A stretch of 64,000 bases of DNA from Trypanosoma brucei (GCA_000002445.1 CP000070.1:2112001-2176000), one strand, 5' to 3'. Positions 11,228 through 54,167 are shown, counted from the stretch's first letter. Made by a program: numbers and translations. The notes: a model not told the origin generated them from the sequence alone.

Positions 11228-11242
11228 GGGGGGGGGGGGGGG
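11228..11242. repeat. G15 homopolymer (preceded by GGGG-T), C15 on the coding strand of the unit
   Basis: Read directly from the sequence. It lies in the 3' flank of the giant repeat gene. Confidence 0.9.
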
Positions 11243-29403: not shown

Positions 29404-29702
29404 TATCTACTCTACCTTCTCTGACAACTCTTTTAAAAGAAGTAATGGGTGAGGGGACTTATTAGACACATCAACCAAACGCCTTTGTATCACTCCGCTG
29501 AGGGACAATGCAGTATATTTGTCGTGCGCTGCCCAACAACGCAGCACGAAGGCTCATGCACTTTCCCCACGTATTATTGCACCGTCTGTTTAAAATTGGG
29601 GGATGATAAAATGAAAAAGAACACAGAGCTATTAAAGGTGTGGAGTGAAGGACCCACTTTACTTTTCTTTTTTGCTTTCTCATCTCCCCTTTCCTTGTTC
29701 AT

Positions 29703-30281
29703 TTACCTCCTCACCGTTGGTTTGATAGCTTGGTCAAGCCACGTATATCGACATGCAGCTTCATCAAGATCACTTGGACCGATTTCTACGAAATCCTCGA
29801 GTCCCATTATCTTGTGCACAAGTTCTGTATCTTCCTCATTGCGAAGTTTGCAACTCAGACAAACACAAAGGAAATCGTGAAACCCCTTCATCTCATACTT
29901 TTCCGCCGCATTTATCGTTTGCAGATAATGCATGATGTTCAAGTCATTCATAAGGCGGGTAGTGAAAAATTCTCTCTCCCAGTCGTCCTTCAAAACATGC
30001 TGCACGTTACGATATATGCAGGGCCTAACTGTGCTGCTCACTGCAACCCCATCCATGCCGTACTTAAGTGTCCACTGGGCAAGGCTCTCGAGAACCGCTT
30101 CCGGATAATCAAATTCAATATCTTCCTCTTCGCTTGATTTCTCAATAAATTTTAGCCGGTTAAGGTGATCCTTTGATACCTCCGCGTACTTTCCGTCGCT
30201 ACAGTGCACAACCGCGTAAAGGGACCTGTCAACATTTGCGGTGTTGTAAACGACACGAATGCCGTGTGTGGAAAAAACCAT
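29703..30281 (-). CDS. Divergent SKP1-family (SCF adaptor-like) protein, 192 aa
   Basis: By-eye alignment to SKP1: SDG in the BTB-like N-terminal fold; [20 protein letters not shown] versus human [29 protein letters not shown] versus [26 protein letters not shown] versus AANYLDIKGLLDVTCKTVA. A hidden-Markov-model search is needed to confirm. Confidence 0.5.
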   Translation of the reverse strand: [192 protein letters not shown]

Positions 30282-32136: not shown

Positions 32137-32166
32137 CCCCCCCCCCCCCCCCCACACACACACATC
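32137..32166. repeat. C17 homopolymer immediately followed by a short (AC)n run
   Basis: Read directly from the sequence (ttagac-C17-acacacacacacatc). It lies at the right edge of a GC-rich non-coding block. Confidence 0.9.
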
Positions 32167-35100
32167 TAAACTCACTTCATGCTGAACTGAGTCTCCGAGT
32201 CGCCCAACCAACCTTTCCCACTCTTCCCTTTAGCAATAACTGGCCACACAGCCGGACTTTTGCATGCATATCTGTCCTCACCGACCGCGGCATCGGGGGC
32301 GTCTGTCAGTCCGGGTCCCCTCACAAACCTGCATCTCCGTGGGCTCAGCTTCCGATCGGTCGCGGCGCCCCAGACAACAGGGTCCGTGATGCGGAAGCCG
32401 CAACACGAACTCCCATCACTTCCATTAAGGAACGCAAGCTAAGTGACTTTGCTGAAAGAGGCTTTCCCGCTCCAGACGTCGGTGAAGCCTTTCGAGTTAA
32501 CGTGGCGTCCGGCTCCGTTATCCCTTTGAGGGTGAGGCCAGGCGTCGGCATGCATCCTGGTTTGTGAGGGCTGGGGAGGGCGAGAGGCCGTCGGGGAACG
32601 TGCGGGTGGCAAAGCCGTTGGTTCTCCAACGCGAAAAAGGGTCGTCCGTTTGGGTCCCTGAACACACTGGGCCGCCCCCACTGGTATCCGCTGTGCGATG
32701 CCGATATTGAGCCGGTGTGTCAAACGAATCCCTACTTGTGTTTTACGTGGGTCACAAGGGAACTTTGGTGTGTGTGCGTGTGGTTCTCCCAGCCGAAAAG
32801 AATCGCGTTAGCGAGGCGTCCCCATGCGAAGAAATGCAGTATCCACATCTCCCCGGGGACACCTCCGCACAGACGAAACGGAACACAAAATAATACAAGG
32901 ATGCCGGCAGATTGGGGAACCGTGGTGTTTCGAGAAAAAAATGCACCTTCGAGGGATCACAGAAGTGTGCAGAACAGCAAAAGTTTTTCTCTGGGGAATG
33001 AAAGAGCAGCAACCAAACCAACATTCGGAGAGGAACGGAAAGCCGCGCTTGCGTCCACATCTTACTGGAGACAACCTGCAAGACCACTCGCTGAAAGGAA
33101 GCGTGCAAGAAACAACCTAAGGATATGCAGAAAGGTAATCAAATGCCAATGCGACAGGGGCGGGGACTTGAACACCCCGCAGATCACGCGGAGCACGGTT
33201 TTGGAATAGGGTTTGCAGGGTATGAGGGATAAACGTTGCGGGCGATTGGAGGAATAGTGGTCACTTATAGGGCGAGGGATTCACAATGCGAGTGAAGCAA
33301 TTCCCCCAGCTGTTGGAGGAGCTAGAACAAGTGGGTGGGAAGACAGTTTAAACACTAAACCCCTTGAAGAGCTGGAGAAGAATATACAGAAGGCACTGGC
33401 CGAGGCGCAGAGTAGAACACGATACATATTCCGATAGTACGATAACTTGTGCGTTCATATTCAGGGAAACACCCAACACACTAGGAATAAACACCAGGAG
33501 ATGGTTGCAATGAAAGTAGGTATAGATGATGAAGCGCTCCTGGTAGCAAAGGCGTCTCTGAACATCCTCCAAATCCCCCGCTGCACGACAGAATGTACGG
33601 GACAAAGTGCCGTCGCTAAGCATATGCAGCGCGAGAAAGAACAGAAAATGAAAAACAAGACAGCGCATCACTCTGGGGATAGAGCGCTAGAAATCTTCAT
33701 AGAATTTGTTGGAATTGTTAAGTCCTGAAAGCACCGCGTAAAGAACATGATGCAGGGAACGCTTTGGAAGGCGAATTGCCATCTCACAGACACCCAACTC
33801 GTTTCCTATGCAAATTTTTCGGGCCAAAGTATTTAGGGCAAAGAAAAAAAAAGGAAACGCCGCATCCTCTTCCCGACGAATGCACGAATCCAGAGAGGGA
33901 GTGGGAGTCAAACGCCTCTGTTTTGCCAAGTTTATTCCTCCTTCACCTCACGATATGCCTGCGTATGGGGTGCGGCAGTGTCGCTGCAATGGATTGGCAG
34001 GTGCCGAACGCAACCTTGCGTCTTGGCCCCCGGGTGCCATCTGCAGGACGGTAAAGGCACCGCTTCCACAGACCTTGGCTGCTGCCGCGTGTGGTTGCTA
34101 TGAGCGCTGTTCCGGCAATCGCCCTCTTCAGGTGGAAAGGGCGTCAGCCTGCAGATTTCCTCCATACGGAATGAAAGACGCCGACGACACTTACACGAGA
34201 ACGACCTTGTCGGTGGAGGTCACGATTCCCGAAGGTTTTACCAGGTGTTTTCCTTCCAACCTGCCGCTACCTCAGTTGCGGGTGTTTCCAACGTCGGCAG
34301 ACGCGCCTTTGTGAAAGACACGGGCTAGAAACCGGCGAAAAGTTATGGGGTTTGGAGAAAGAGCCAGTGAATGGTTGACGGAAGTTCCACGGATGTATTC
34401 CGGCTCAATCGCATTCCCCACAGTTACGACATTGAGGCGCCAGCGGGTCAAGCGGGTACCTGGAGAAAATGGCAGCAGAGAGGTCATCGAGACCGCACAC
34501 CCGAGTAGGCACCCACCTGCAGTTCTTTAAGTACACCACAAGGCCTTCATATACGAGCAGCAGGGGCAGCGGCGAAAGGGGAAATCTGTCACAGCCGTCG
34601 CCATGGAATCAGCGTCACATACTTCGCAAACTAATGAGGGAACCCGCCAATGCACGGACAAAAAGCATGACTTCCGTTAACAGCGGGAAATGCAAGCAGC
34701 CGCTGCTCGCAACGCCCCTTCAGATTACTACGGAGGAGGGCTTTAAGAACAGAAGAAGGGGGAAAAAAAAACAGGTTTGGGGATGCGAGTGACACCAATG
34801 AAAGGTGTTAACGTGTCTAGAAACCGCGGTGCTTCAAAAATCGGTTGTTGTTTGAATGTAGTGCAAAGCGATATAAGGCAATGGTAGATCTAGCGATAGC
34901 CAAAAAACAGCGGCAGCTGCAAATTAATAAAACCCTGATATGGAGGTTCCGTTTTGGATGTAAGGAAGAATTACTGAAATTAAATGTACTCATAACCAGA
35001 TTTATACAAAAAAAATATGAAGAGGTAGGTTAAATGGTAACACCAACGAAAAATAAAAAAAGACCAAACAATGCACTACAAAGTGAGAAAAACATCGTTT

Positions 35101-35505
35101 ACGCTTACCGTACAGAAGGCAATTTCACGGCCCTTAAGAATAAAAAAAAACCTAACACACTAGGGTTAACATCTTAGAAAAACATCACGCCGCATACACC
35201 TGACAGAAGGTTGTTTACTTTGCGCGATAGCAAGCAAGAACCTACTAAATCGTATGGGTGAAGGGGTGTGTTGAAATCCAACTCCCCCCCCAGCTACATT
35301 CAGCAAGCGACGTAACTGCAACAAGTAAAGATGCATATCTTGCGCCGAACCAATTGGGATGTATACTGCCAATGGGCTTAAGGAAACTCTTCACATTAAA
35401 AGTAAAATACCTACGAAACATACCATACATCTTTCACAACATCCCATGGCCTTATAAGCCTTAGAAGCCACGATCTATCTGTGATTAACTTCTTTTGATC
35501 CTAAT

Positions 35506-39123: not shown

Positions 39124-42100
39124 GGCGGAAGGATTTATCCAGTTGCAGTCACCAGGGAACTGTTTCCCGGATCAGGAGACTTTGATATATATATATATAT
39201 ATATGTGTGTGTCGTTGCAGTGTCTTGTAGCGGTAACCCCGTCAACGCGCGGTGGCAGCTAAAGGGGGTTGTATAGCTCGAAACTGTTATGGCCTAAAAG
39301 ACAGAGAGGAAAACAAACTGTTAATAGTAATTTATGACAGGAGGTAGTGAGAGTCATGCAACGCGACAGGGCTTTCTGGACTGCAATAGCTGTGCTCAAA
39401 CATGTGGGGCCCGTCGCGACGAAGGGTGTACACGTATAGAAAACTGTACAGAAGCAAAGAAATACTAAACATCCCCAGCATCATTTCAGGTCGGGCCCCG
39501 AGGGAGAGGGCAGACGACTGACATAAACTCCCTCTTCACGTCACGCGAAGCACGTCGACAGGCAAGTGTTTCGGGGTTTACTAAGGACGCATGCCTCCTC
39601 CTTCATGTAGTGAGGGAGTTTGGGCAACCACTTCCAATGCACACAACATTTATATAACCACGGCGATGCACGTGATAGTTGCTTCCCAACGACAGTAAAC
39701 TTCGTGTGTAGGAAAGGAAAGTAAAAAATGTGAAAAACTACCATCTAGCAGAAACTCCCTTGAAACATAGAAGTATCGAATAAAACAGTATTTACTCACC
39801 GCTGACGTAGCATCAGTACACCGTTGGCAATCAGCTCAACTGCACGAGCTTTACAGCCTTCACACGAACTACCAAGTAGCATTTCCTACAAGCATGTCCC
39901 CCCTCTTCCATAAACTACTACTAAGCTAAACACACCGCGTCCTCATAGGTATTATACCTAAAGAATTTGGCATGTGCGAAAAAGTGTTCACACGCAGTGG
40001 TCAGCTTTGTCTACTGGTGGTGTCAATCAACATAGCTGGTGATGTGTTTTTCAATGTCTTCAGCGTGCTTTACGAACTGGGTAATATGCTTCAAACGTAA
40101 CCTCTGCACGCCTACGCGTGACATGACTAGAACAAAGTGTGCTCCTTTGCATCAAAAAAAACAAAAATAATAATAATAATCACTTCCATCCACCCACCTT
40201 TGTGATATGTACAGGGTATGAAAACGGCGCCCCTGACACACAAATCGCACTTCAACTCTCTGAACAAAAAACACAGCCCTACACCGAAACTCATCAGTTA
40301 ACATCACTTCGGTAAGCTGATGGCGAGTATTATCTGTCTGAATAGAAGGTTGGACTTCAAATACGGTACGTTTGTCTGGGCACAAACCTGTCTCATCTCC
40401 CAAAAAATCCACAGAATATGCCATGGGGCAAGCAGCGGTGTGCCAACGGAAAGCAAAGCATGAAAATAAAAGGTGACGTAAAGGCAACTACCGCACGGCA
40501 AACATGTGGCATATAATCTGGTACCTGAGTGACTCTCCGTGCTGTTAAATCAGAGGGTATATGTGCAGTGACTGTGACACCATCTGTCCACACTAATGAC
40601 AAGGGCAAAAAATATGGCACCCTCCGCGCAACAACAGGACAGTGCTCCCACAGACTCACTTCTCGCAGAGCAGACTCACTTATAGTACAAATGAAAGGCG
40701 GTAAACGCCACCTTTCCCGCACATTTTTTTGTGCATCCTGTTCATAGCACAACTAACCCCTAACTTTTGATTGTGAGCCGTCAATACCACTGGGTCACCC
40801 GTGCCAGAATGTCCACACCGCCGTCCTCATCCCGAACGTCGGTGAAGGTAAGAATATATCGCCTGAAGGTCCACACTTACTAGAGGGGGATGAAGCTACT
40901 CCCTCATCGCTTAGATGAAGCTGCGTCGTAGAACTGGCAAGTTCCGTGTCCCCACCGTTTCGTGTGTGCACGATCCGCACCACTTTGCTTCAACATCGTT
41001 CTTTCTGCCACACAATAACTTGTAAAGTAACGTTGTGTACTCTCGCGAATACGAAAACAGTAAACGTACAAGGTCCGTTAAGATTACAAAAATGCCTCGC
41101 CACTTCGCCGCCCCTTCCCATTCCAACGTGAACCGCGTACCTGATGGCGCACTGGGGTGTAAAGAAAGCAGACGTGCACTCCAAACCTTTTCAGTTTCGT
41201 CGGCGATGTAAGGGCACTTTCCGTTCACATCGCTACGCATCACATTGTTAACATTTCAACCTCACCTAGCAACGATGGCATTGTATAACCGATGAATGCC
41301 AAAAGCACAAATTAAGGGGCGAGTGGTTGCACTCTTCACAGCATCCCCAGACAGACAATGAGGGAAGGATATGCTGGAATCTCTGGCATTACCAGCTTTG
41401 TCTGTCATGGCAGTTACGTGTTTACTTCACCGCCACGCAACCCGACGTACAGATGGTGAAGTTCGATAACAAGCGCTACGACGATGATGCTGTCACGACC
41501 AGATGCGGCTCCGGATCCTTTCCACGTGTTCAGTGTGTATGGCTTAACTACCTTTAAGAAACCCGAGCCAGCTATTTATTAGAGCCCGTCCTCATAAATT
41601 ATAATACCTTCGGATCCAACCACCAAAGCCTCTTCCTCTTGTCCAATCGTGAACCGTAACGAACAAATACACATCCACCAAACGTGGTACATCATATCCT
41701 GGATAGCAGGTGCTACCTTCATACGACGCGTACTGCTTCACTAAACGTTTTGCAACTCTGTGCGCTACTACCTCGCCGACGTTGTCCCCGTTACGAATCC
41801 GGAAGCTAACACAAGACACTAACCTTTGTGCATCCATTTCCCTTCCCGTTTCCATTGGGGTGTTTACCGTTCCTGTCTCAATATACGCTGGAATTATTTT
41901 TGTTATGCACATTACGAGCTTTTCGAGTAGCTGATAAGTTGTCGTCCGTATCACACTCTTCAAAGTTGCGCCGCTCTCTCACAACGCATCCAAGCTCCTC
42001 ATATACGTGCGCAAAGGGGCGTGAAGAGGCTGAATCAAACCACACGGGAGTCGCTTTCCAAAGTGCAATTTGTCTCTTTCAAAAAACCACAACACGGATG

Positions 42101-44577
42101 TCGCAACTGTGGTTCCCCTTGTGTTTTTTTTACCTTATTTGTTCTTTTTAGCCGTTCAAATGCTGCCCTTTCCCCCAGTTTTCTATCTTTATCATGAGGT
42201 TAGTTGCCGAGTCGTTCCATTATTATATAGTGTAGTGCCTTGAGGACATTATTGGGCCCATGTGTCGAATCGTTCGTGGCGTTGACGTCGTTTCCTGGCG
42301 GACAAGCAGGCATCATTGGCAGTGTTGTCAGGTGTGATCTAGGGGAAATTGTCCGTGTTAACTCTGGAACACTGTCTGCGTTTCATGCCGTATGCCCCCC
42401 TTTCCACTGCTACGCACGTTGACCGACCGATCGATTCAATGTCCCATGTTCACAGCTGACCAAATATTTTTTCCTTTCCCTCTGAAGAAGTCACCACCGG
42501 GAGTGGGGTGCAACCCATGGGTTCACAACGGCATGACTTAGTTTCTTAATCACTCTCAAACGTTTTCCCTCCTCACTTCTCTTCCACCCTTTCGGAGCTG
42601 CAATGATTCCCATCTTCCACGCCGAGGTTTGTTGTGGCATCAGGTTACCTCCGTCGGGTTTCTTCAGTTCATCGTTTTCCTGATCTCACGGCGCAACAAC
42701 AGTAGCTGAAACGTTGGCATTGTTATTCTTCTGGTTGATTCTGCGGTATATATCCACACGGGTTGTGCAATCCCCCCTTTAATCTTGGAGGACCCGTTTT
42801 TTAAAAAGCCAATGAAAGGGATGAAAAGTTGGTGAGCACTGCCATTCTTATCCCTCTTTTGAGATCGCTTTTCCACAATCAGTAAGCGCTACGAATCTGC
42901 TTTTCACCTATGTACTCCTTATCCCATGGCTGGGTATGTAGTACTGTTTCACATCCTTAGAGTGTTGGAACAGTAAGGCCACAACTTCCAGCAAGCAAGG
43001 CGATGTCAATGACTCATCCGTCTAAATTGGGGAGTTGATTTTCTCTAGTTTTTACCTGTCCCGATATTCATTTGCGCTTTTCACCAATGAGGTCATCCGC
43101 TTTAGTTACCAACAACCTTCCTGAAGAGCAAGAAATACTAACGATGATCAGACAGTACCCGACAGCCTCAGAAAAATAAGCGGGCGCAGATGCGACCTGC
43201 AACCTGTGTCCAGATATGAGCCAGTGGGATACTATCCGGGAGTACCCCGTGACACTTAGGCTTAGTGCAACAACTGGGTCCTCCGTCACCGCGCTCCTTC
43301 TCATCGGCTAGAAACCCGCGCCAATACCACACACAAAGACAACGAAGTTTTCGTGTGTACTCCCCTTGTGGGGCTACGTTTTTCCCTTTCAGAATTCCTG
43401 TCGTAGTCTTGATCATGTCGACCCGATTTCCTCATCGGAAGCAGTGCTCATGTGTTCAGAACGGTAGATCTCAGTACACAAGAAGGTATGCTCACAGGCA
43501 GATTGAGCGAATGATTGATCCTCGTCAACCCAGAGGAGAGGGAGGAATGAACATTGTCGTTTTACCAGTCCGTTGCCCACACGATGTATAATTGTTCATC
43601 TGTGCCACTGCCGAATCCTGGGACGCATGCTGACGCTTAGCCCCCTTTCTCCCCCATGAGGGGACCCGCCCATGCTCTGCTGGGGATGCGGCGGCAACCT
43701 TCAAAAGCTAATGTTGAAGAGTGATTCTTACGCAGTTAGCTACTGAAGTAATACTGGAAGCAGGTGTCCACAGCCTACGACACGTCCCGCTTCTACGTTG
43801 TGTGAGTCACAGCTGCTTCCATAATTGGCCTTGTGATGTGGGACGGCTGTCGGTAGGATAATAATAATAGTAATGTCCCAGCAAAGTGGGACGATGACCA
43901 AACATATGGATCAACTTCCGTTACCGCAACGGGGACTATTGCATCACCGGATGAACAATAACGGCGGTGACGGTCAACCTATAAAATCTGCGCAAGCGGG
44001 CGATCTAACCGTAACCTACAAATGGCGATCCAATGCCACGTTTCTCGAACGGGTCACCATCCGAGCACCTACCGCACAATCAGGTGGCAAAAAATGTCAC
44101 CCAATCACACTCGCTAATTCGGAGCGACTACCTCCAAAACATGTCGGACTCACGCAGTGATGCAATCCATTCAGAAAAAAAAAATCATCGCCCCCCCCCC
44201 TTAAGTAACATGGCTTTTTGACCGCAGTAGCCACTGTGCTTTCGCACCCTTCGCCGAGGTGCTTGCACATACTACGGGCAAGCGGCAGCAAAACCCTTGG
44301 CGTATTCGCGTGTATTGCTTCCGCCCACAGTGTACACAAGGAAAAAATATAGAATGAGTGGCAAAACAGTGAGTTAAGATGCAATGCAGCTAGGAGGAAA
44401 GCTCATTTTCTCGAACGCCAACACACCAAGGTGTCCGGAAGGAACGTCTGTGAACCTTCACTTTCACGCGGTATACGGGGTTGATCCGCGCTAGAATAAA
44501 AACGTTAAAATTCAGCGCCATCTCGACGACACGTCGGTACGAATGAGCCTGCACACGACTCAGTCGCGCATCGGAAA

Positions 44578-47073
44578 TCAAATATTAGTAGGAACCACGT
44601 CCCGCCGTCTTTGGAAGACGAGTGTTAATATAAAAAGTGTCAACGCACACAAAGAAATTACGGACAAAAGATAAACATATTCCAATATACCCCCGTCACT
44701 GTATCTCGATCTTACTGAAGAAACATGGTCACCAAACGTAAAAAACACACCGTCATGTGACTGCCTGCCAGCCCCCGCAGCGACTCTTGAAGACACAGGA
44801 AGCGGCGTCGTCGGGTTGGCTGCACGGATCACCTCCCTGTTGGTGAACACCAACTGTAGTTCCCCTTCGCTCAACCTTCGGTTGTACAGGAGCACACTGT
44901 GTACAGTTATGGATGTGTGATCCGAGAGATCAGAGGACGCTGGGGTTCCAACGAAAAAGTGCCTAATGTTTAGAAGGTCGACACGATCGGACTCACTAAC
45001 ATTAATTGCAGCAACCGCTAGTTTGCCGTCAACGTATGCAACAACCAAACCATCTTGCAATGCTAGTGCAATCTGGTGAGTCTCTTCCAAATTTGACGGC
45101 ACCGGAGAACCTTCGCTGCATTTTTCTCCGTACATCAGAGTCCATCTCGTATTTTCAATCGAAAGAATAAAGAGTTTATTAGCATTCTTTTCTCCATTCA
45201 CAAAACCAATTAATGGAGTGTCCCTTTGAGGCACCGCGCCAAACTGCACCGTCGCCACAATTGTGAAATGGGTGTTGGCAAAGTAGTACCGTTGGTCTTG
45301 CCCTTGCTCACTAACCGGCCACACTACACTGCTTCCACTGGTACCACCTAATACGACGCCACGTTTGTTGTCCACAGCTCCACTGACACTTGCATTTACA
45401 CACTTGTACACGTCAGGCCACACATGTCCAACTGCGGGTCCGGTAAGCAACCCGGCAAGATCACCAACTGGTATCCCCTTACAAGGTCTCGTTCCTCCAA
45501 CCGATGAAAGACAGTCACCCACCAACAGAGCATCCTGTGCCTTCCATAACAACACGACCCGTTTAATCATCTTCATCTCATCCACAAGACGTGCAAGGTA
45601 AATAGTGAAAACCTCTTCGATTTTCTGCTCATATAGGCAGTAAAGTTTGCCATCGCTCGTGTATAGTAAGGAGCTGTATGGACTGTTGTCGTCACCTTGA
45701 GATATCTGTCCGACAAGGAATACACGAGTGCCGTCCGTTAACCATAACTGGAGATGGTCACGCGAGAAACTCCCCTTCTCATTTTTTGGCTGAGAAATTA
45801 GCATGACATCCATGCCCTCCACAGTTATGGAAATAGCACTTCCTGAACTACCAGGCTGGTTACGAAGCGGCGAGTTGCCTATCACTCGGGAAAGAGTACT
45901 GATGGATTCCTTCAACGTATTCCCTAGGTCACTCGTTTCAAACACCCTGCGGTAACCTACATATTCGGCCGTTCTGGCATTCACTAACAACCTGTCTTTC
46001 CACCAAACCACGGAAGATTCAGTTGAACCGACCGGTGTTTCTCCCGCACCGAAGTGCCATGTTTTGCCATCATCAGTTGAGTACAAAAGTTTTCCTACAA
46101 CATGGTTCCATGTATTCTTGACTTGGACAGAAAATACAATGGCGCCGTCTGGCGTTACGGCAGCGTTCCCTACGCCACCAAGAAACTGGGATGGGGGGTG
46201 CCCACCTGGTGAGGGCACCGTTGCTAAGAGAAACTTCAGGTTCTGGGGAGCCTCAAATGTAATGCTCGCAGTTACATTACCATCTTTTTCCTCTTTGATG
46301 ACAGTACCCTTGTACATGAGTATATCCCAGTCTTCGCCGTAATGCTGCCACGTCCAATACTTACTGGAAGTGTTGTACCTTCCCACGAGAACGAATATAT
46401 TGTTTCCTTTGACGGCGACTGTGGGATCTACAACTCGGGAAAAATTAGTGTTAACACGACTGTTCTCAATGATGACTTTAGTCTTCCAAGTATCCCCACC
46501 ATCAGCACTGTACTTGGCAACTGTCTCAGTGAAGGTGAAATCAGCAGATGAAATGTACCGTACGTCGGCGATGCCCACCAACACACCACTGACTTCAACA
46601 AACGAAGGGACACGGAAAGAGTGAACGTTGCGCATCCATTGCGTTCCATTCTTCTCCCTAAATGGAACTTTCGTCCTCGGCACCAGCGTGTATCCTTTCT
46701 TCCTCTGAGAAAGCCACTCCTTCCTGCAAACTTCTCCCTTAGCTTCTTTAGCAACCGAGTCCATGCACCACGCCCACCATTCATAGCCGGCGTTCCACTC
46801 GGGGGAGGTTTTCCAACTGCCCTTTTCCCATTCACTCTTCCTCACCCACCGGCCACCTTCCAGAAACACCTCACGCGTCGTCTTCTCATAGATCTTGGAG
46901 GACACGATGCCGCAGCAAAATGACAAAACAGATAGTATCACCACTGTGCACGGTAAAAACGGATATGCTAACATGGAAAATGGGCTCGTCAGGCTTAGGG
47001 TGCCCATGCGCACCTGCAGGCGTTCCATATACTTTCTGCAAGCGTCCTCGCACCTAGCGAATACACCGCTCAC
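44578..47073 (-). CDS. Trans-sialidase/sialidase-family protein (beta-propeller catalytic domain plus C-terminal lectin-like domain, C-terminal hydrophobic anchor)
   Basis: FRVPS (FRIP-type arginine motif), Asp-box SADGGDTW and further S-x-D-x-G-x-T-W-like boxes. Overall length and domain order match trypanosome trans-sialidases. The true start may be an internal Met (positions 47007 or 46974), which is followed by a signal-peptide-like segment MLAYPFLPCTVVILSVLSFCCGIVSS. Confidence 0.8.
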   Translation of the reverse strand: MSGVFARCEDACRKYMERLQVRMGTLSLTSPFSMLAYPFLPCTVVILSVLSFCCGIVSSKIYEKTTREVFLEGGRWVRKSEWEKGSWKTSPEWNAGYEWWAWCMDSVAKEAKGEVCRKEWLSQRKKGYTLVPRTKVPFREKNGTQWMRNVHSFRVPSFVEVSGVLVGIADVRYISSADFTFTETVAKYSADGGDTWKTKVIIENSRVNTNFSRVVDPTVAVKGNNIFVLVGRYNTSSKYWTWQHYGEDWDILMYKGTVIKEEKDGNVTASITFEAPQNLKFLLATVPSPGGHPPSQFLGGVGNAAVTPDGAIVFSVQVKNTWNHVVGKLLYSTDDGKTWHFGAGETPVGSTESSVVWWKDRLLVNARTAEYVGYRRVFETSDLGNTLKESISTLSRVIGNSPLRNQPGSSGSAISITVEGMDVMLISQPKNEKGSFSRDHLQLWLTDGTRVFLVGQISQGDDNSPYSSLLYTSDGKLYCLYEQKIEEVFTIYLARLVDEMKMIKRVVLLWKAQDALLVGDCLSSVGGTRPCKGIPVGDLAGLLTGPAVGHVWPDVYKCVNASVSGAVDNKRGVVLGGTSGSSVVWPVSEQGQDQRYYFANTHFTIVATVQFGAVPQRDTPLIGFVNGEKNANKLFILSIENTRWTLMYGEKCSEGSPVPSNLEETHQIALALQDGLVVAYVDGKLAVAAINVSESDRVDLLNIRHFFVGTPASSDLSDHTSITVHSVLLYNRRLSEGELQLVFTNREVIRAANPTTPLPVSSRVAAGAGRQSHDGVFFTFGDHVSSVRSRYSDGGILEYVYLLSVISLCALTLFILTLVFQRRRDVVPTNI

Positions 47074-49241
47074 AAGGTATAGTATAAGAGTACGCTTTCT
47101 AACACGTAAAATTCATGTCGTAAGGTGAAGTAATCGAGGTTGAAATAAAACACACTCATTAACGCAATGGATTAGGCACAAAAATACAAATGCCAGCGGG
47201 AACGTCACGAAGACCACTGCAAAAGTTGAACCCATGCGTTACGCTTGGTGGTCGGGCTGGTCGAAGAGACATAAACGAACTGCTGTTACACCACCAACTC
47301 CGTAAATTGTTTGATTGACGTAGAATATTAGTGATAAGAATGTATTCGCAGCGGCCTTATATGGGGGCAAAAAATAACCGTAGGGTCACTTCCTAACACG
47401 CATTGAACAAGAGGTACCGATACGCGTGCACTCATACAAGTTTTACAAACCCCCATGTTGTGAACAGTTAAATCCCTCATCTCTCTTATCAATATAGCGG
47501 CAAGTTTCAGCTTTTTGTTTAACCAGGAGAACTCAAGAGGCTGCAACAAACTTCGTGAAAGATAGGCAGGTGCGGAGGGGGGACGGCATCAAGTCACCGT
47601 GGGGTGAGCGGCAGCCCTCCTATAGGGGAAACCCGCTGCTGGAACTCCTTTACGAACTTATATGCGTAATGTCAGCAAAGTCGTCCGCGCCAACAGGAAA
47701 GTAAACTAACCCTAAGCAGTCGGTTTGCTACTCAACGAGCGGGGAAATTAAATTCGGGCCCGCCATACTGATGCCCGAAAGTCGAGAAGAAAAGGGACTG
47801 CACCCTCCTTCATAGGTGAAGCTGAACTCCCATTACGGCAGTAATTGTAAAGAGAGAACAAACTGATCGACGCTGCCGCAGCTGAGGCAAAGAATTGCCC
47901 TATCGAACCGGCATGCCGGCAGGGACTTCAAGGGGAGAAAATAAAACGGCCCCCAAAAGGAAACTCATCGGTGATGAATTACCCACACGACACTGGCATA
48001 TCAGTTGTTAGAGTGCAAAGGCGCCGTTGTTAGTATGGGCTACAGCTTTCTACCGTCCAAATTTGGCCGCGACACAAATCCTTTGCTTTCGCCCAAGGAA
48101 AGCGCAGTGTAGCCGGACTGTACGTTGCGCACGGACGTGAAGGCCAATTGAAACAAGCCTAAGACAGCCCACTGGCACAACCAAGCCACGTGTTAGCAGA
48201 AAAGTGAGTGACACCACTTCAATTAGGGATGAGATCACAGTGGTACAGTATCCTCCCCTAGGTTACCGCTCCACTCCTTCGATCGCAATGCGGCACCCAT
48301 TCACCGTGCCCAACCCAACGTGATCACCGAACTTTACGGCAGTGCGAGCATAGGCGAAGGGGAAGCGCTGCTTGGTGCGGCCCATGCGAGAAACTTCAGC
48401 CACTGAAAAGGGACTGTTCCAATACACCTCCCGCTAGCCGCATCCCCGCTGACGAACAAAAACATGTATGCGGCGCCCCGGTGTCCCGAGGCTGAGTCAG
48501 TAATTGCAGTGCTTTCGCCCCCTTTTCGGTGGAGTGGGAGCCAATGCCAGTGTTCGGACTGAGCAGGCGAGGATGTTGGCGACGCGAGGGCAGCATGAAG
48601 TGACGGTGAAAGCGTGGTCAGGCATTTCTCGCCTCTACGCGGGAGGGTACAGCGCAATCAGGTGCGCTCCGACAGTCCGGACGCGGTGCGTACCGAAAGC
48701 GTGTGCCGCAGTCGCGGGAGGAAGTGCCACAATGTCACTTCTTTCCTCCGGGGCGCGGAAGCAATGTCGAGTCTTTCCGTATGAAGGGCGGTGCGTCAGC
48801 CAAAGAAGGTCCGATGCGAACCGGAGGCGTTGAACCAAGGAAAGGACGTAAAATAGTTTAGTTGAGACACTGGCAACACACCGCAGCAAACGACCACCAC
48901 AAGGGCGCGGAAGGGGGTGGGGGAGATATGGCGACGCCGTGGCGAACGTCAACCATCTCAACACAATTAGGGGACGGATGCTTGACACTTTGGGTCAGTC
49001 CGTTCTTTGCCTATTCGATATCTGCCGCCCACGGCTCCGCTTGTGGCGTTTACCTTCAGACGCGAGGGCGCCATCGAGTTGGAGTGAGAGGGGTGTCGAG
49101 TCCCGGCTCCTCTTCTGTGGGAGGGGAAGCAGCGGTGCCACCACACTATGGTTATTGCCGTCGCGACGTCGTCGGTCCCGTGCGACACCTTACTGAATCG
49201 GTTCCCGTTCCTCGTTTCAGTCCGTGTGGCGTTCACGACAC

Positions 49242-49256
49242 GGGGGGGGGGGGGGG
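49242..49256. repeat. G15 homopolymer inside the strand-switch region
   Basis: Read directly from the sequence (cacgacac-G15-ccgtatcc). Confidence 0.9.
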
Positions 49257-52200
49257 CCGTATCCGTTGCGGAGCTTTGTCGTTTTAGAGAGTTTTGGGTT
49301 CTAGTGTCGTGCAACATTAGCGAGTTGACTCCCCACCTCCATTGCAGGTTGTACCGCTTCCTTTTTGTTGACCAAATAAATGTGATTTTCTGCTTGTTCG
49401 TAGCTGGGCGCCGTCATCTGGATGCGAAAATGATTTAAGTACCGTCCGTTGTGTTGATGTGTCCTGCTGCATGCAGATGTGACGGAGGTTGCCGATATGG
49501 CGAAGTCTAAACACCTTTTGGCTGCAGAAATGCTGTAACAGTTGCGCATGGCGCCGGTGGGTCGGTGCCGGTGCTTTCCGGGAGTAGCTGCCGTGCCATA
49601 GAGTGCAGAAGTTTCCGATTTGGCGATTCTGCTCGGTTAAATTCGCTTGTTTACTTTCCCAAGCTATCGCCTTTGACTTTGAACGAAGAGGGGGAGGTAC
49701 TTGCCCCTTAGAAACCGTGGCAGCGTCAGGTGCAGAGGTTTGTTATGGGCGTTTGAGACGGGGGCTGCTTGCAGTGACTGAACAGAGTGTGAGCCAACAT
49801 GTTTGCTTGATAACGAAAACCCTCTTTTTTTTTTTAGGGGGGGGGGTCATACCAGCAGCTTATTTTACATGTTTATGTGTTGATGCGTACAGTTCACTCA
49901 CATGCATTTTTTGTTTCGTTATTTCTTTTCCCCAGTGGGAAAATGCACTGTGCAACTGATAGGATAGATCAGCTCTCTTTTGCGGTGGGCTGTTCTCGTT
50001 TCAGCATCATATGACGAGCAAGTCGCCGGAGTAGGGGCTTTCGTTTATTTGATATTTCCCAACCGCCCTCCTCTTGCGGCGTTCCGTCTTTTTTACCTCT
50101 GAGATTAGCTTTGTATGTGTGGAGCGCTGGATTGCGTTGGGACAACACACACCTTTCACTTGTGTGAAGCGGTAGGCTCAGAAGCTGGTGAGTTAATGTG
50201 ACTGCTCGGTGTGCCGTGATTTTTTGGTCATTTTTCGTACTTCAATTACTTTCCCCGAGTCGTTCCTGTTTGTGGGAAAAAAAAACAGTGACGAGCTTAC
50301 CTTTCTTTTGTACCAGCGGCGGTTGTTTATGTTGTATTGTATTTGTTTGCCAATTCAATTGACGACTTAATTAGCGTTATCATTGTTAACTTTTTTGCTT
50401 TGGAGAACCCACGGGGAGAGGCACCACGGTTGCAGTGGTCACCGTTGCAGCAATCGCTGCAGGTTACTTGTTTTATCGAAGTGGTGGAAGATAGTAGTAA
50501 AACACTCATATCACTCACACTTGAATGTTGTTTCAGAATTATTGGATATCGCATGGGACAACTGAGAATGTTGTGCGTGTTACGTAGATTCAAGCGACAT
50601 CCACTCAAGTCAGCGGTTAAAAGCGTTTGCCTTACCGTGGATTTGACTTCTTGCGTTGGGTTTCACTGACATATCGTTGGGTTTGAACAATCAGCTTATA
50701 GACAAAGTTATTTTACCATTCTCCTCTTTTTACCAGTTTTGTTATTTACAGGTGGGCTTACTTTTCCACTTGTAACCATTTGAAGGCTGTGGTAAGCATT
50801 ATTTATGTGCCACCGTGCCGGCAGTGTTGTTAAGCAGGGGGGAAAGAAGGCACTATTGAAACATATTGGCACCATTTAAACGCCACCATACGCCAACATG
50901 GAACTTCTTCGTTATTTTCCCGCAATGTCATCCTGTGAGTCACACTTGTAATCACTACGGGGATTCGTCCGGCAGATTCTAGTCGTGCTCGTTCAGTGGG
51001 CAATGTTCTCTCTCACTGGTGCAGGCCATTATCGTCATTGTGATGGAGGTGCTTGGAATTGGACATCCGGTTTCTTACTTTTTATGTTGTTCACATCACA
51101 ACCACCACACAGACACTTTCCCGTAGGTATGATGTCCTTTAAAAAAAGTGGAACTGACGGCTCCAGAAGGGCTTCTACCATGTTGATTTTCTGCCTCGAC
51201 GGGATCGTGAAGGCTGATCAACTGTGATAAATTCATATTGACGGCCCGTGACTTCGAGGACTTTTTTGTGGCTGAGCGTCGAGAGAAGCTCCAGGACCAG
51301 GACATGCCTGTGCTAGTGGGGGCACCGAGCACGGTACGGAAAGGTATTAAATAAACTGGAGCAACCACATAGATGTGTATCATTAGATGCAACTAATAAA
51401 GTTTGAAGTTACAGCAGAGACAGCGATACTTCACTGCAGTGGATTATGCCAACGGGTGCTTGCGGGGGTTATGATCAGTTGGTGGTGAGCGCTTTTCTAA
51501 AGAGGATCGTCGGGTACGAACCCAGTAGCAGTGCCGGATGTGTATACAAGGAAGCCGGATTTTTTCTGCACTGATAGGTGCCATGCCAATTAATGGGTGC
51601 CTTATGGATGCTTTGAATGAAACGTTCTCTGTGGAACTTGAAGTGCTCACAATGCTGGCAGAGTAGCTTTACAGGTCGCACGAAAATGTATTTGACAGAG
51701 CGTCGATATCGGTCTGCACTTGCTGAATATAGTGAATATATTGATTCTGACGATCCCTGGTGGGATAAGCTAAACTAATTCCCACTGGATGCTAATCATG
51801 TCTACACGGATGAAGAGACGTGTGCTCGTCATTTCGTTGTACAAAAGCTGCCTGGCAGCGAACCTACCACGCTACAGGCGAAGGTAATGGAGAAGCTAAA
51901 GTGCTTGACACCAAATCCAGAGATGTCGCACATACGAGGTGAACATGGCGCTCGACTGGTGCGCCACGGAGGTGCTGTGCTGACGATCTCCGTTTCTTTT
52001 ACCGAACACATGCGGTAAAGTGGAGCCCAGATGAAACGAACGGAGCGGAATCCGGTTCGCTAGTTTTCAGCCTTGCTGTGACGTGTGGTCGAGCCACTGA
52101 GCATAGCTGTATGTGTTTGCGGTGTGTGATTGAAAAGTGAAAGAGGTTGTGGAAGAGGGTGATGAACGGTACCGGTATTGAAACAACTTGGTTATGCCGA

Positions 52201-53230
52201 TGGGGCGCCGTCAGATCTATTTCCCTGCGCGGGTTTTGTTGGAGAGGCCCAAAGAACTTAAAGTCTTCACTGGGCGGTGCTGGTTGCGAGGCCGCAGTCC
52301 AGTTACTGACGTGCTGGGGTCTTGACGAATCGCACCTGGAACCGATAAATCGGTAGTTTAGTTGCAGTGAATTGCCTGTACATGGTTTCTACTTGAATAA
52401 TTGCGAGTCGTCGGCCGCAGCAGAGATTTAGGGGCTATTGTGCTTGAAGAGGGTTAGATTGTATACATGGGGCGTTTGGAACAGTAACCTTTAAGGGCGG
52501 AAATGAGGCTGTTTTTCTGTTTTCGTTTTTTTTCCCGTAAATTTCATATTATCGAAAATCTCTGGTGTGACATCGGCACCGACAAGTCTCTAGGGGTCCA
52601 ATCCAACGGAGACACGTATGAACTGCAAAGTAACGGAACAAGTGATGAATAAAAGGGAAGTCTGTGCAACCTCAGTGTTTGAATGATTTGCCCCGTACCG
52701 GGGGAGTGCCTACCTGAGCAGGTCTAACGAACTCTGGGTACATCCTGTTTGCGTTACTGTTTTCTTTGAGTGTATAGATGTTGAACACCACCCCTACGTA
52801 CGCACCCCTACCTTTCGTCAATCCTGCGGATTGTATCAGGGGTGAACGGCAGGCAAAAGGTGCGCTTTAGTGACATTTGTGCACTTCAACATTCTGTCAG
52901 GGACTGCGTTTTCTTTCCTTTGCATGCGGAAGCCGTGAAGTGGAAGTGGACTCGGTACTACGATAAGGCTAAGCTTGAAGGGCTCACCAAGACTCACTTC
53001 CTTCCCCCGCTATCGGAAAGTACTCGTTGGCGTGGCGCATCAAGCAGGTGTTCACTTTCTTACCAAAAGTAGTAGTAAAATGCGGGTGGTGGCTGAGGGT
53101 GTTGTCAAATTTGAAGTACCAACCCGATGAACCGTTCTAGGGTGCAAACACAAGCTAAGCACTTCGATTTAGGAATTTCATTTGCACTTCACTTCAATTA
53201 CTGTTACCGATTGGTCTGTATGCGCATAGC

Positions 53231-53328
53231 CCCACTAATCTCTTTTCCCTCTTCCTACCGCTTAATTTACATGAATACTGGTCATGTGATTCGCTACGCT
53301 TGTCCCCAACTTGCCCTTTGGATCGCAG
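53231..53328 (+). promoter_or_regulatory. Polypyrimidine tract plus predicted spliced-leader acceptor AG for the RING-finger mRNA
   Basis: C/T-rich run ccactaatctcttttccctcttcctaccgcttaatttac...cgcttgtccccaacttgccctttgg. The first downstream AG is at 53327-53328, 2 nt before the ATG at 53331. This is a sequence-based inference only. Confidence 0.45.
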
Positions 53329-53330
53329 AT

Positions 53331-54167
53331 ATGAGTTCCATCCCCGCCAACAGCGTTACCTGCTCCATATGCCTCGAGCACTGGGTAGAACCGACGGAGT
53401 GCCTGCCATGCAGGCACATATTCTGCAAGAAGTGCATATCCAGAGTAGAACGGTGTCCTTTGTGCCGCTCGCACATAAGGGAAATGATGAGTGCTAATCG
53501 CTTCCTGCTTGAGGCGGTGGAAGGCGTTGTTGGGCATGACGGGGTTGAACAACGGGTAAGGAATGCAGAGCAGCGAGCAGAGGAGGCAGAGAAAATTTTG
53601 GCGGAGATCGCTGGGCCGTTTTTGGAAACAGACAACGAAACATGTTGGGAGGCGAAGGCAAGGGAGAATGCAGAAAAGGTCATCGGAGGCCTCCGGTCCC
53701 AGCTGGAGTGTCTAAGAGCGAAGAAACGCGGTATGGAAGCAGCCATATCGAAACTGGAAGCGAGCAAGAGAAATTGTGCGCGGGGTCCGGATGTAAATCA
53801 TTTTTTGCATTGCCTTTCGGGTGCCACACTGCTTCCGCAGTTGATATCAACCTTTGCCCCAACTTCAACTTCGCGCGCCGCCATGGGTGTTGCAGCGAGA
53901 GCGGCGTTGGGGATGGTGACGGGAGGTCCTTTGGGGGCGGTCGCCGCCGCAGCATTTGCGGGGGAGTCGAGTGGGAGGCAAGGAAATGATGAGATAGATG
54001 AAGAAATACGAGTGAAAACAGCAGACCTGCGGATTTTGGAGCGTGAGATCGAGAACATCGAGGCCAACTTGCGTTTGGAGGAAGAGAAGGAGAATCGAAG
54101 GCAGTATTTTGTGGGGTTGATAAGGTCAATGGGACAAAATTCGGAGCGCGGGATGGGACAATCATAG
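53331..54167 (+). CDS. RING-finger (C3HC4) protein with a coiled-coil region and a glycine-zipper-like hydrophobic segment; putative E3 ubiquitin ligase
   Basis: CSICLEHWVEPTECLPCRHIFCKKCISRVERCPLC is a canonical C3HC4 RING. Coiled-coil-like charged helices follow (EQRAEEAEKILAEI..., LECLRAKKRGMEAAISKLEASKRN) and then an AAMGVAARAALGMVTGGPLGAVAAAAFAG segment. The six-frame ORF starts at 53127, but the pyrimidine tract and AG acceptor place the start at the Met at 53331. Confidence 0.7.
   Translation: MSSIPANSVTCSICLEHWVEPTECLPCRHIFCKKCISRVERCPLCRSHIREMMSANRFLLEAVEGVVGHDGVEQRVRNAEQRAEEAEKILAEIAGPFLETDNETCWEAKARENAEKVIGGLRSQLECLRAKKRGMEAAISKLEASKRNCARGPDVNHFLHCLSGATLLPQLISTFAPTSTSRAAMGVAARAALGMVTGGPLGAVAAAAFAGESSGRQGNDEIDEEIRVKTADLRILEREIENIEANLRLEEEKENRRQYFVGLIRSMGQNSERGMGQS

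What the first reader, a model, noticed from the sequence alone, without database searches (positions are those of the whole stretch)
47074..53330. Divergent strand-switch region with a ~1-kb GC-rich, CpG-dense island and a G15 tract
Coding polarity flips here, with the trans-sialidase gene leaving leftward and the RING gene leaving rightward. In trypanosomes such regions are the polymerase II start zones marked by H2A.Z/H2B.V and acetylated histones. Inside it, 48250-49300 is far more GC-rich than typical intergenic DNA. It ends at the G15 run (49242-49256), followed shortly by a T11-G10 block at ~49835-49857. The G15 tract can fold into a G-quadruplex on the plus strand. A GC-rich island at a start region could be a promoter-proximal element, a decayed pseudogene or a small-RNA locus.
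Basis: partly seen in the sequence, partly recalled or inferred. Interest (0 to 1): 0.6.

Follow-up and report, generated by a model that had tools for sequence, protein, structure and literature searches.

The report
Trypanosome bidirectional promoter with GC-rich core
This is an already catalogued two-way RNA polymerase II start region on Trypanosoma brucei chromosome 7; its 1-kb GC-rich block sits where the two outgoing transcription units meet, and similar blocks mark every other start region I could check.

Summary
The window is T. brucei TREU927 chromosome 7 (window position + 2,112,000 = Tb927_07_v5.1). Polarity flips between trans-sialidase Tb927.7.7480 and RING gene Tb927.7.7490. The block 48252-49274 (60.1% GC) is the window's strongest GC segment. 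G15 lies exactly at 49242-49256. The T11-A-G10 block is at 49825-49846, about 10 bases left of the stated position.

The interpretation as a Pol II start zone is correct but published: Kolev 2010 Table S14 lists both outgoing units as "Divergent". A Bdf3 domain covers window 41047-47889. Long sense-strand G runs are the strongest known sequence signature of the 5' ends of T. brucei start regions (Wedel 2017).

The island is non-coding and unique: no protein homologue, RNA family, tRNA or repeat. The window's G+T, GC and T-A strand-skew minima all fall inside it (48464-48978). The CpG density follows from base composition (observed/expected 1.06).

One extra result: all six mapped or inferred start regions I examined carry a GC island of this kind (five peak at 0.605-0.635 over 600 bp). 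Ten ordinary intergenic gaps peak at 0.555 or below, and one convergent region peaks near 0.50. I did not find this stated in the papers I could search.

The parts
44578..47028 (-). Trans-sialidase gene Tb927.7.7480, first gene of the leftward two-gene unit (7480 -> 7470)
   Evidence: Pfam BNR_3 and TS_C. Exact match to AAZ12809 with the start at 47028. Listed in Kolev Table S14.
41047..47889 (.). Published Bdf3 (bromodomain factor 3) CUT&RUN domain of the leftward start region, bloodstream form (Tb927_07_v5.1 2153047-2159889)
   Evidence: Supplement of PMC9241505. The table lists only peaks that overlap genes. The domain's upstream edge stops 363 bp left of the GC island.
47029..53330 (.). 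Divergent strand-switch region between Tb927.7.7480 and Tb927.7.7490
   Evidence: Named as a divergent Pol II start region.
48252..49274 (.). GC-rich island (60.1% GC): unique, non-coding, C-rich in the left half and G-rich in the right half
   Evidence: Top maximal GC segment of the window. No protein homologue, no RNA family, no repeats. Oppositely signed G4Hunter sites in the two halves.
48464..48978 (.). Strand-composition switch: cumulative G+T skew minimum of the whole window at 48464, GC-skew minimum at 48527, T-A skew minimum at 48978
   Evidence: The Wedel strand-biased 10-mers partition at the same point: 3 on minus and 0 on plus to the left, 18 on plus and 0 on minus to the right.
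48897..48937 (+). Canonical G-tract cluster (gggcgcggaagggggtgggggag) on the rightward sense strand
   Evidence: G4Hunter 2.12; sequence.
49242..49256 (+). G15 tract on the sense strand of the rightward unit, at the right edge of the island. It is G17 in T. b. gambiense DAL972 and falls at an assembly gap in T. equiperdum.
   Evidence: It supplies 8 of the Wedel 10-mers (CG9, G10 x6, G9C).
49825..49846 (+). T11-A-G10 block (T9-A-G8 in DAL972)
49001..50500 (+). Most GT-rich stretch of the switch region (60% G+T, top 2% of 1500-bp windows): inferred 5' part of the rightward start region
   Evidence: Highest plus-strand count of Wedel 10-mers in the window (12 in the bin 49001-50000).
50720..50736 (+). 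Polypyrimidine tract plus AG: first mapped trans-splice acceptor of the rightward unit (the transcript starts at 50737)
   Evidence: Kolev new-transcript table gives Tb7.NT.112 starting at 2162737, which is window 50737. AG at 50735-50736 was read directly.
50737..53174 (+). Tb7.NT.112: a published trans-spliced, polyadenylated transcript with no long ORF, the first processed RNA of the rightward unit
   Evidence: ORF lists show no ORF above about 130 aa.
53331..54167 (+). RING-finger gene Tb927.7.7490, first protein-coding gene of the rightward unit
31579..32703 (.). Sister feature: the second GC island (59.5% GC) with C17 at 32137-32153 (G17 on the minus sense strand). It lies in the published internal start region upstream of Tb927.7.7460.
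   Evidence: Kolev and Maree tables. A Bdf3 peak covers window 28079-31907. An ORC1 site maps to about window 32038.

Best explanation
The interval is a bidirectional RNA polymerase II transcription start region of T. brucei chromosome 7. It is the divergent strand-switch region between Tb927.7.7480 and Tb927.7.7490.

Shown. Two units leave it. The leftward unit is trans-sialidase then GRESAG4. The rightward unit starts with the non-coding trans-spliced RNA Tb7.NT.112 (acceptor at 50737), followed by the RING gene.

Shown. The 1-kb GC-rich island (48252-49274) is neither a gene, a gene relic, nor an RNA gene. It is the compositional core where the two oppositely oriented start regions abut. 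The window-wide G+T, GC and T-A skew minima all fall inside it. Its left half is C-rich on the plus strand, so G-rich on the leftward sense strand. Its right half is G-rich on the plus strand.

Shown. The island ends at G15, and T11-A-G10 follows 570 bp further on. These are sense-strand homopolymer elements of the GT-rich promoter class.

Inferred mechanism. Polymerase enters at or just outside the island's edges and runs outward. On each side the non-template strand is G/T-rich. This is the property that Wedel et al. showed drives directional initiation and H2A.Z deposition. The rigid G and T tracts exclude nucleosomes at the border. Rightward initiation must lie between about 48.5 and 50.7 kb.

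More speculative. The island itself may be a sequence-encoded landmark that fixes where the start-region chromatin domain begins.
For: Identity. Seven window proteins match T. brucei TREU927 chromosome 7 entries exactly. Four annotated genes place the window at Tb927_07_v5.1 2,112,001-2,176,000.

Start region. Kolev 2010 Table S14 lists both outgoing units as Divergent, on the basis of enriched 5'-triphosphate reads at every divergent unit. A Bdf3 domain covers window 41047-47889. Wyllie 2016 names the region, and hemizygous loss of a segment that includes it halves NTR mRNA.

First acceptor. Tb7.NT.112 starts at window 50737, with polypyrimidine plus AG verified in the sequence.

Core position. 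The skew minima are at 48464, 48527 and 48978. The Wedel 10-mers split 18:0 (plus:minus) to the right of 48464 and 0:3 to the left.

G runs. G10 is the top strand-biased 10-mer in the 5'-most fifth of 199 start regions, 132 on the coding strand against 17 on the non-coding strand. [quoted passage not shown]

Not a gene. No homologues, no Rfam family or tRNA, no repeats.

Recurrence. The five highest-scoring GC segments in the window, L004 and L006 together are the five Kolev/Maree-listed start regions those sequences contain. Their peak 600-bp GC is 0.605-0.635, against 0.445-0.555 for ten other intergenic gaps. In a blind test on L007, the top GC segment (7912-8504) lay in the divergent region beside the skew minimum (7577) and ended at a sense-strand G13. 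The adjoining convergent region had no island.
Against: No nucleotide-level start-site, Pol II, H2A.Z or SPARC data for this locus could be read here. Whether polymerase starts inside, at the edge of, or outside the island is therefore inferred.

The Bdf3 table lists only peaks that overlap genes, so the state of 47890-53330 is unknown.

The leftward side is weak in Wedel 10-mers (3 hits).

The islands share no motif. This fits composition-driven function but equally fits a functionless mutational by-product.

The Wyllie deletion also removes the internal start region at 7460/7470, which heads the unit containing NTR. It therefore does not prove activity of this particular region.

The recurrence rests on six loci, four of them next to trans-sialidase genes. 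Three were fetched from T. b. gambiense, while the start-region lists come from T. b. brucei. L007's start-region status is inferred from gene orientation only.

Sense-strand bias of G runs is not general in the window: 3 sense against 3 antisense in the leftward unit.
Confidence: 0.72

Rival explanations
1. The region is a start region, but the GC island is a functionless by-product. Candidate causes are GC-biased repair or gene conversion at a break-prone, R-loop-prone initiation zone, or simply the absence of the AT- and pyrimidine-rich processing signals that fill transcribed intergenic DNA. Under this reading initiation depends only on chromatin and on the flanking GT-rich tracts.
For: The islands at six start regions share no motif beyond homopolymers and no homology. 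The SPARC paper found no motif under CRD1 or RPB1 peaks. R-loops and DNA damage at start regions are documented. CpG observed/expected is only what the composition predicts.
Against: At 60% GC the island exceeds coding DNA (51.6%), so loss of AT-rich signals alone cannot explain it. The separation from ten other intergenic gaps and one convergent region is complete. The island position is tied to the skew switch and to the upstream edge of Bdf3 domains at two loci. None of this excludes a mutational origin.
Confidence: 0.22
2. The GC block is a decayed pseudogene or retroelement relic (for example DIRE, ingi or RHS), as often found in trypanosome strand-switch regions.
For: The many overlapping stop-free stretches of 70-148 codons in all six frames at 48.0-49.7 kb could superficially suggest former coding sequence. 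A 125-aa ORF is annotated there in T. b. gambiense.
Against: The six-frame translation of 48040-49960 finds nothing among 5.8 billion proteins. The T. b. gambiense ORF is frameshifted after the G tract relative to TREU927 and has no Pfam hit. There is no copy elsewhere in the window or in the paralogous chromosome 5 locus. Open frames on all six phases are what GC-rich non-coding DNA gives.
Confidence: 0.02
3. The island encodes a small or structured non-coding RNA (snoRNA, snRNA-like, or a Pol III gene relic) that nucleates the start region, as tRNA genes do at some T. brucei start regions.
For: One of the comparison islands (L006 17418-18158) does contain a tRNA-Lys gene. Kolev classifies several start regions as 'next to tRNA'.
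Against: ARAGORN finds no tRNA in the window. There is no Rfam hit at gathering score, and only a chance C/D-box hit (E = 0.64, at 49500-49549, outside the island) in a permissive scan. No convincing A-box and B-box pair exists. Kolev's new-transcript list has nothing between 47 and 50.7 kb.
Confidence: 0.02
4. The island is primarily a replication-origin element (an ORC1/CDC6 binding site) rather than a transcription element.
For: ORC1 sites in T. brucei concentrate at unit boundaries. One published site maps inside the sister island at the internal start region (Tb427 chr7 2144967, about window 32038).
Against: No published ORC1 site maps to the focal island. The nearest sites on that list are about window 32038 and about 57132 (coordinates converted with an offset derived).
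Confidence: 0.02

Closest known systems
Divergent Pol II transcription start regions of T. brucei (Siegel 2009; Kolev 2010; Wedel 2017)
   Same: Divergent polarity. Listed by name in Kolev's Table S14. A Bdf3 domain lies on the leftward side. The G>C and T>A sense-strand skew flips here. A non-coding trans-spliced first transcript is present.
   Different: Nothing essential differs: it is one of the catalogued regions. Both units it heads are very short. The leftward unit has two genes before an internal start region, and the rightward unit runs toward the end of the chromosome core.
GT-rich promoter elements (Wedel et al. 2017, EMBO J)
   Same: G15 and G10 lie on the coding strand at the inferred 5' end of the rightward start region. 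All 18 hits to the published strand-biased 10-mers between 48465 and 53400 are on the coding strand. Homopolymeric G and T tracts of this kind are nucleosome-excluding.
   Different: The published elements are G/T-rich, not G+C-rich. The 1-kb island itself is 60% GC with little net skew and lies upstream of the GT-rich stretch. Promoter activity of this particular sequence has not been tested.
Vertebrate CpG-island promoters
   Same: A roughly 1-kb GC-rich, CpG-dense block at a dispersed, bidirectional, constitutively active promoter, with G-rich non-template strands (GC skew) leaving it on both sides.
   Different: The T. brucei genome is not CpG-depleted (window CpG observed/expected 0.91). 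The island is therefore not defined by escape from methylation-driven CpG decay, and its CpG observed/expected (1.06) is just what its base composition predicts. This is a resemblance in layout, not membership.
GC-rich strand-switch domains of T. cruzi (centromeric, Obado et al.)
   Same: A GC-rich block at a strand-switch region in a trypanosome (from my own knowledge; mentioned among the hits).
   Different: The T. cruzi domains are 11-16 kb, made of degenerate retroelements and act as centromeres. This island is 1 kb, unique sequence, without retroelement homology. T. brucei centromeres are AT-rich repeat arrays, and none is present here.

Membership tests
T. brucei divergent Pol II transcription start region | Two gene arrays leaving in opposite directions from a gene-free interval | tested here: met
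   Minus-strand ORFs run up to 47073 and plus-strand ORFs start from 53127. The flanking genes are identified.
T. brucei divergent Pol II transcription start region | Primary (5'-triphosphate) transcripts of both polarities arising in the interval | not testable with these tools
   No read-level data are available here. Published: Kolev 2010 Table S14 lists both units as 'Divergent' initiation regions.
T. brucei divergent Pol II transcription start region | Broad domains of H2A.Z/H2B.V, H4K10ac and BDF3 on each outgoing side | tested here: inconclusive
   Published Bdf3 CUT&RUN shows a 6.8-kb peak over window 41047-47889 on the left. On the right only small peaks at 53514-55273 are listed, and the table omits peaks that overlap no gene. 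H2A.Z and H4K10ac tracks could not be read.
T. brucei divergent Pol II transcription start region | G>C and T>A excess on the coding strand, switching sign in the region | tested here: met
   The cumulative G+T, GC and T-A skew minima of the whole window fall at 48464, 48527 and 48978.
GT-rich promoter element (Wedel 2017) | Published strand-biased 10-mers, above all G10, on the coding strand at the 5' end of the start region | tested here: met
   Right of 48464 there are 18 hits on plus and 0 on minus, including CG9, G10 x7 and G9C. The 49001-50000 bin holds the window's highest plus-strand count. The leftward side is weak (3 hits).
GT-rich promoter element (Wedel 2017) | Orientation-dependent reporter transcription and H2A.Z deposition when inserted ectopically | not testable with these tools
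   This needs the dual-luciferase and MNase-ChIP assays.
75-bp sequence-specific Pol II promoter (Cordon-Obras 2022) | Match to the published core promoter sequence or motif | not tested
   The paper is not held in the library and I do not know the motif. Staneva 2022 reports that similar motifs are not found under most CRD1 and RPB1 peaks.
CpG island (vertebrate sense) | CpG observed/expected well above a CpG-depleted genomic background | tested here: not met
   Island CpG observed/expected is 1.06 against a window mean of 0.91 +/- 0.10. The high CpG count (98 against 57) is explained by GC content.
G-quadruplex-forming sequence | Four or more G tracts of at least 3 on one strand; high G4Hunter score | tested here: met
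   G15 fits G3-N1-G3-N1-G3-N1-G3 (G4Hunter 2.28). A second motif at 48897-48937 scores 2.12. The density of such sites in the switch region is no higher than in the window.
G-quadruplex-forming sequence | Structure formed in chromatin | not testable with these tools
   G4 ChIP-seq shows about five-fold enrichment at T. brucei start and termination regions in general. The per-locus peaks are on an assembly I could not map to.
Pseudogene or retroelement relic | Detectable protein or DNA homology to a gene or repeat family | tested here: not met
   The six-frame search found nothing. There are no internal or window-wide repeats. The T. b. gambiense ORF is not frame-conserved.
Structured or small RNA gene | Match to a known RNA family or tRNA model | tested here: not met
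ORC1/CDC6-bound replication origin | Mapped ORC1 site within the element | tested here: not met
   The published site list (Tiengwe 2012 as remapped by Maree 2017) has none in the island. The nearest are about window 32038 and about 57132.

The most novel reading that the evidence does not exclude
A 0.6-1.1-kb block of about 60% GC, placed at the strand-skew switch and often bounded by a long sense-strand G run, may be a general sequence-encoded hallmark of T. brucei Pol II start regions (divergent, internal and tRNA-adjacent). It is absent from ordinary intergenic gaps and from the one termination region examined. It may be the landmark that fixes where the H2A.Z, Bdf3 and SPARC chromatin domain begins. 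If so, it would be a missing 'where' signal for promoters that are regarded as lacking defined sequence. In my sample it holds for 6 of 6 start regions against 0 of 10 control gaps and 0 of 1 convergent region. I did not find it stated in the papers I could search.
Probability: 0.3. Interest if true: 0.6.

Novelty: already known. Interest (0 to 1): 0.3.

Why it matters
How polymerase II chooses its start regions in trypanosomes is a long-standing question. Those regions seem to lack defined promoters and regulated initiation.

This locus adds nothing new as a start region: it is already listed, and its G runs are the textbook signature. What may be worth a follow-up is the compositional rule seen here. 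A GC-rich core at the skew switch separated six start regions from ten ordinary gaps and one convergent region. If a genome-wide scan confirms it, start regions could be predicted from sequence alone in unannotated trypanosome genomes. It would also supply a concrete element to delete or transplant in experiments.

Tried and rejected
1. Pseudogene or retroelement origin. I searched the six-frame translation of 48040-49960 as one concatenated query and found no hit.
2. RNA gene. ARAGORN, Rfam at gathering score and Rfam at E<=1, and an A-box/B-box pattern scan all gave nothing credible.
3. Repeats and palindromes. There are none beyond the homopolymers.
4. Homology with the paralogous trans-sialidase locus on chromosome 5. 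Similarity stops 54 bp upstream of the ATG, so the island is not part of that duplication.
5. Interspecies conservation. The RING protein search returned only its own T. brucei-group (Trypanozoon) cluster. The closest T. congolense trans-sialidase lies in a different gene order with no strand switch. No alignment outside that group was possible. Within the group (T. b. gambiense, T. equiperdum, one Logan contig) the region is about 99.2-99.4% identical, which is too close to show constraint.
6. A shared motif among the GC islands. None exceeded shuffled expectation.
7. Enrichment of G4-prone sites in the switch region. Not seen.
8. Replication origin. No published ORC1 site lies in the island.
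9. The Maree 2017 start-region table lacks this region. This proved to be a loss during remapping to strain 427, since the original Kolev table includes it.
10. TREU927 itself is not in the contig index.
11. One MAFFT run timed out and was replaced by pairwise BLAST.

Full report
**Identity of the sequence.** Seven proteins encoded in the window match GenBank entries of Trypanosoma brucei brucei TREU927 chromosome 7 residue for residue. They include GRESAG4 adenylate cyclase, ATP synthase alpha and CRK2. Four genes whose Tb927_07_v5.1 coordinates appear in a published supplement all fit one offset: Tb927.7.7460, 7470, 7480 and 7490. Window position + 2,112,000 gives the chromosome position. 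The finding therefore lies at about 2.159-2.165 Mb, near the right end of the chromosome core.

**Checking the observation.**
- *Polarity.* ORFs of at least 150 aa lie on the minus strand up to 47073 and on the plus strand from 53127.
- *Flanking genes.* They are a trans-sialidase and a RING-finger protein. Their annotated starts are 47028 and 53331.
- *GC island.* A maximal-scoring-segment analysis puts the strongest GC-rich segment of the 64 kb at 48252-49274 (1023 bp, 60.1% GC). Coding DNA here is 51.6% GC and non-coding DNA is 48.1%.
- *CpG.* The island holds 98 CpG against a window mean of 57 +/- 11. Its CpG observed/expected ratio is only 1.06, against 0.91 for the window. The CpG density is a consequence of base composition, and the genome is not CpG-depleted.
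- *Homopolymers.* G15 is exactly at 49242-49256.
- *Background.* G or C runs of nine or more occur 13 times in the window against 0.3 in shuffles. They include another G15 and a C17. Such runs are real but are a property of the genome, not of this spot alone.

**What the island is not.**
- The six-frame translation of 48040-49960, searched as one query against 5.8 billion proteins, found nothing.
- A 125-codon ORF is annotated inside the island in T. b. gambiense DAL972. The G tract there is G17 rather than G15, and the reading frame after it differs from TREU927. That ORF is spurious.
- There is no tRNA and no Rfam family at gathering score. A permissive scan gave only one chance hit. There is no Pol III box pair.
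- The region has no repeats or palindromes and no copy elsewhere in the window.
- The paralogous trans-sialidase locus on chromosome 5 shares only the coding sequence.

**What is already published for this locus.**
- Kolev et al. 2010 generated 5'-triphosphate-enriched RNA-seq and reported enrichment "at every divergent transcription unit".
- Their Table S14 lists Tb927.7.7480->7470 (minus, Divergent), Tb927.7.7490->Tb07.30D13.80 (plus, Divergent) and Tb927.7.7460->6890 (minus, Internal).
- Their table of new transcripts places Tb7.NT.112 at 2162737-2165174 (plus), which is window 50737-53174. The sequence shows a polypyrimidine tract and AG ending at 50736. The first trans-splice acceptor of the rightward unit is therefore at 50737, and rightward initiation must lie to its left.
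- Bdf3 CUT&RUN in bloodstream forms gives a 6.8-kb peak at window 41047-47889. It ends 363 bp short of the island. That table lists only peaks that overlap genes.
- Wyllie et al. 2016 name this strand-switch region as a probable Pol II start. They found NTR mRNA roughly halved when one allele of a >70-kb segment including it was lost. That deletion also removes the internal start region that actually heads the NTR unit, so it is not specific evidence.
- A remapped start-region list in Maree et al. 2017 omits this region. This is a mapping loss, not a negative result.

**Anatomy.**
- The cumulative G+T skew of the entire window reaches its minimum at 48464, the GC skew at 48527 and the T-A skew at 48978. 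All three lie inside the island.
- Wedel et al. 2017 published 157 10-mers that are at least six-fold enriched on the coding strand of 199 start regions. The top one, G10, occurs 132 times on the coding strand against 17 on the other in the 5'-most fifth.
- Scanning those 10-mers in the window gives 18 plus-strand and 0 minus-strand hits between 48465 and 53400. Between 47000 and 48464 there are 0 plus-strand and 3 minus-strand hits. The 49001-50000 bin has the highest plus-strand count of the window.
- The stretch 49001-50500 is 60% G+T, in the top 2% of windows.
- Inside the island the G4-prone sites are C-rich in the left half and G-rich in the right half.
- The island is thus the place where two outward-facing, sense-strand G/T-rich start regions meet. 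G15 marks its right edge and T11-A-G10 lies in the GT-rich zone beyond. [quoted passage not shown] Maree et al. find G.C runs over 7 bp absent from nucleosomes.

**Recurrence.**
- The window's second-best GC segment is 31579-32703 (59.5% GC), with C17, that is G17 on the minus sense strand. It lies in the 5.2-kb gap that Kolev and Maree list as the internal start region upstream of Tb927.7.7460. The Bdf3 domain there (window 28079-31907) again begins at the island's downstream edge.
- I then fetched three other trans-sialidase loci from T. b. gambiense.
- *L004* is the chromosome 5 divergent region between Tb927.5.630 and 5.640. Its top GC segment (4769-5370, 63.6% GC) lies next to the skew minimum at 5478.
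- *L006* is the Tb927.7.6850 locus. Its top segment (2885-3838, 61.7% GC) contains the skew minimum at 3354. Its second segment (17418-18158) contains a tRNA-Lys gene, matching the listed "next to tRNA" start region of Tb927.7.6840.
- Across the window, L004 and L006 together, the five highest-scoring GC segments are the five listed start regions.
- Peak 600-bp GC is 0.605-0.635 in those five intervals and 0.445-0.555 in ten other intergenic gaps.
- *L007* (chromosome 8) served as a blind test. Its top GC segment (7912-8504, 59.9% GC) fell in the divergent region beside the skew minimum (7577) and ended at a sense-strand G13. The neighbouring convergent region had no island.
- The islands share no motif. 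This agrees with the report that no motif underlies CRD1 or RPB1 peaks.
- I did not find a GC-rich core described in the papers I could search. The library does not hold Siegel 2009 or Cordon-Obras 2022.

**Mechanism.**
- *Shown:* a divergent start region, already mapped experimentally, with a non-coding, unique GC-rich core at the compositional switch and sense-strand G and T homopolymers at the start of the rightward side.
- *Inferred:* polymerase initiates at or near the island's edges and runs outward. The G/T-rich non-template strands and rigid tracts favour open chromatin, H2A.Z deposition and directionality, as shown for synthetic GT-rich elements.
- *More speculative:* the island itself may be a sequence landmark that positions the start-region chromatin.
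- *Main rival:* the island may be a mutational by-product, such as GC-biased repair at an R-loop-prone and break-prone zone, with no function of its own. My data cannot separate the two.
- *Origin function:* it has no support at this island, because no published ORC1 site lies there. One does map into the sister island.

**Verdict.** The main interpretation is right but already published for this very locus. The pseudogene and small-RNA alternatives are excluded as far as these tools reach. The CpG-island framing does not apply. The G runs are a known signature. The one lead worth pursuing is the apparent generality of a GC-rich core at T. brucei start regions, which needs a genome-wide test.

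Noticed in passing
window 30282-35505 (island 31579-32703; C17 at 32137-32153): A second GC island (59.5% GC) with G17 on the minus sense strand lies in a 5.2-kb gene-free gap. The gap is the published internal Pol II start region upstream of Tb927.7.7460. A published ORC1 site maps to about 32038, roughly 100 bp from the tract, and a Bdf3 peak covers 28079-31907.
   Followed up: partly
window 44578-47028; L004 10001-12451; L006 10001-12316; L007 10001-12247: All four T. brucei trans-sialidase loci examined (Tb927.7.7480, 5.640, 7.6850, 8.7340/50) are the first gene beside a divergent strand-switch region. All sit in very short units of one to three genes. On chromosomes 5 and 7 a GRESAG4 adenylate cyclase follows the trans-sialidase.
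   Followed up: partly
window 54168-61826: A 7.6-kb stretch after the RING gene has no long ORF. Three published trans-spliced transcripts cover it: Tb7.NT.113 (55064-56672), NT.114 (56765-59390) and NT.115 (59548-61619). The annotated Tb927.7.7492 (55074-55151) is a 25-codon ORF at the start of NT.113. A published ORC1 site maps near 57132.
   Followed up: partly
L003 5602-5979 (window about 48928-49305): T. b. gambiense DAL972 carries an annotated 125-aa ORF inside the GC island. Its C-terminus is frameshifted relative to TREU927 because the G tract differs in length (G17 against G15). It has no homologues and is probably a spurious gene call.
   Followed up: yes
window 49242-49276 and 49825-49846; L002, L003: Homopolymer lengths differ between subspecies: G15 against G17, and T11-A-G10 against T9-A-G8 or T10-A-G8. 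The T. equiperdum assembly has a run of N directly after the G tract. These tracts are unstable, hard to sequence, or both.
   Followed up: partly
L005 (T. congolense contig CAEQ01000752): The closest T. congolense relative (TS4, 56% identity) lies downstream of a GRESAG4 gene on the same strand. This is the reverse of the T. brucei order (trans-sialidase, then GRESAG4), and no strand switch lies on the contig. The locus is therefore not syntenic.
   Followed up: no
window 39436-44336 (minus strand): The 5.4-kb gap between GRESAG4 and the trans-sialidase is covered by a published 4.9-kb transcript, Tb7.NT.111. It also holds a 57-codon annotated ORF, Tb927.7.7475 (44097-44270). A Bdf3 site listed among those with nearby genes lies at 41887-42287.
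   Followed up: no
window 11779-18372: A 2197-aa minus-strand ORF carries a 1308-aa ORF on the opposite strand (13169-17095). This suggests repetitive or strongly biased coding sequence. A G15 identical in length to the one in the finding lies just upstream of it, at 11228-11242, on the antisense strand.
   Followed up: no
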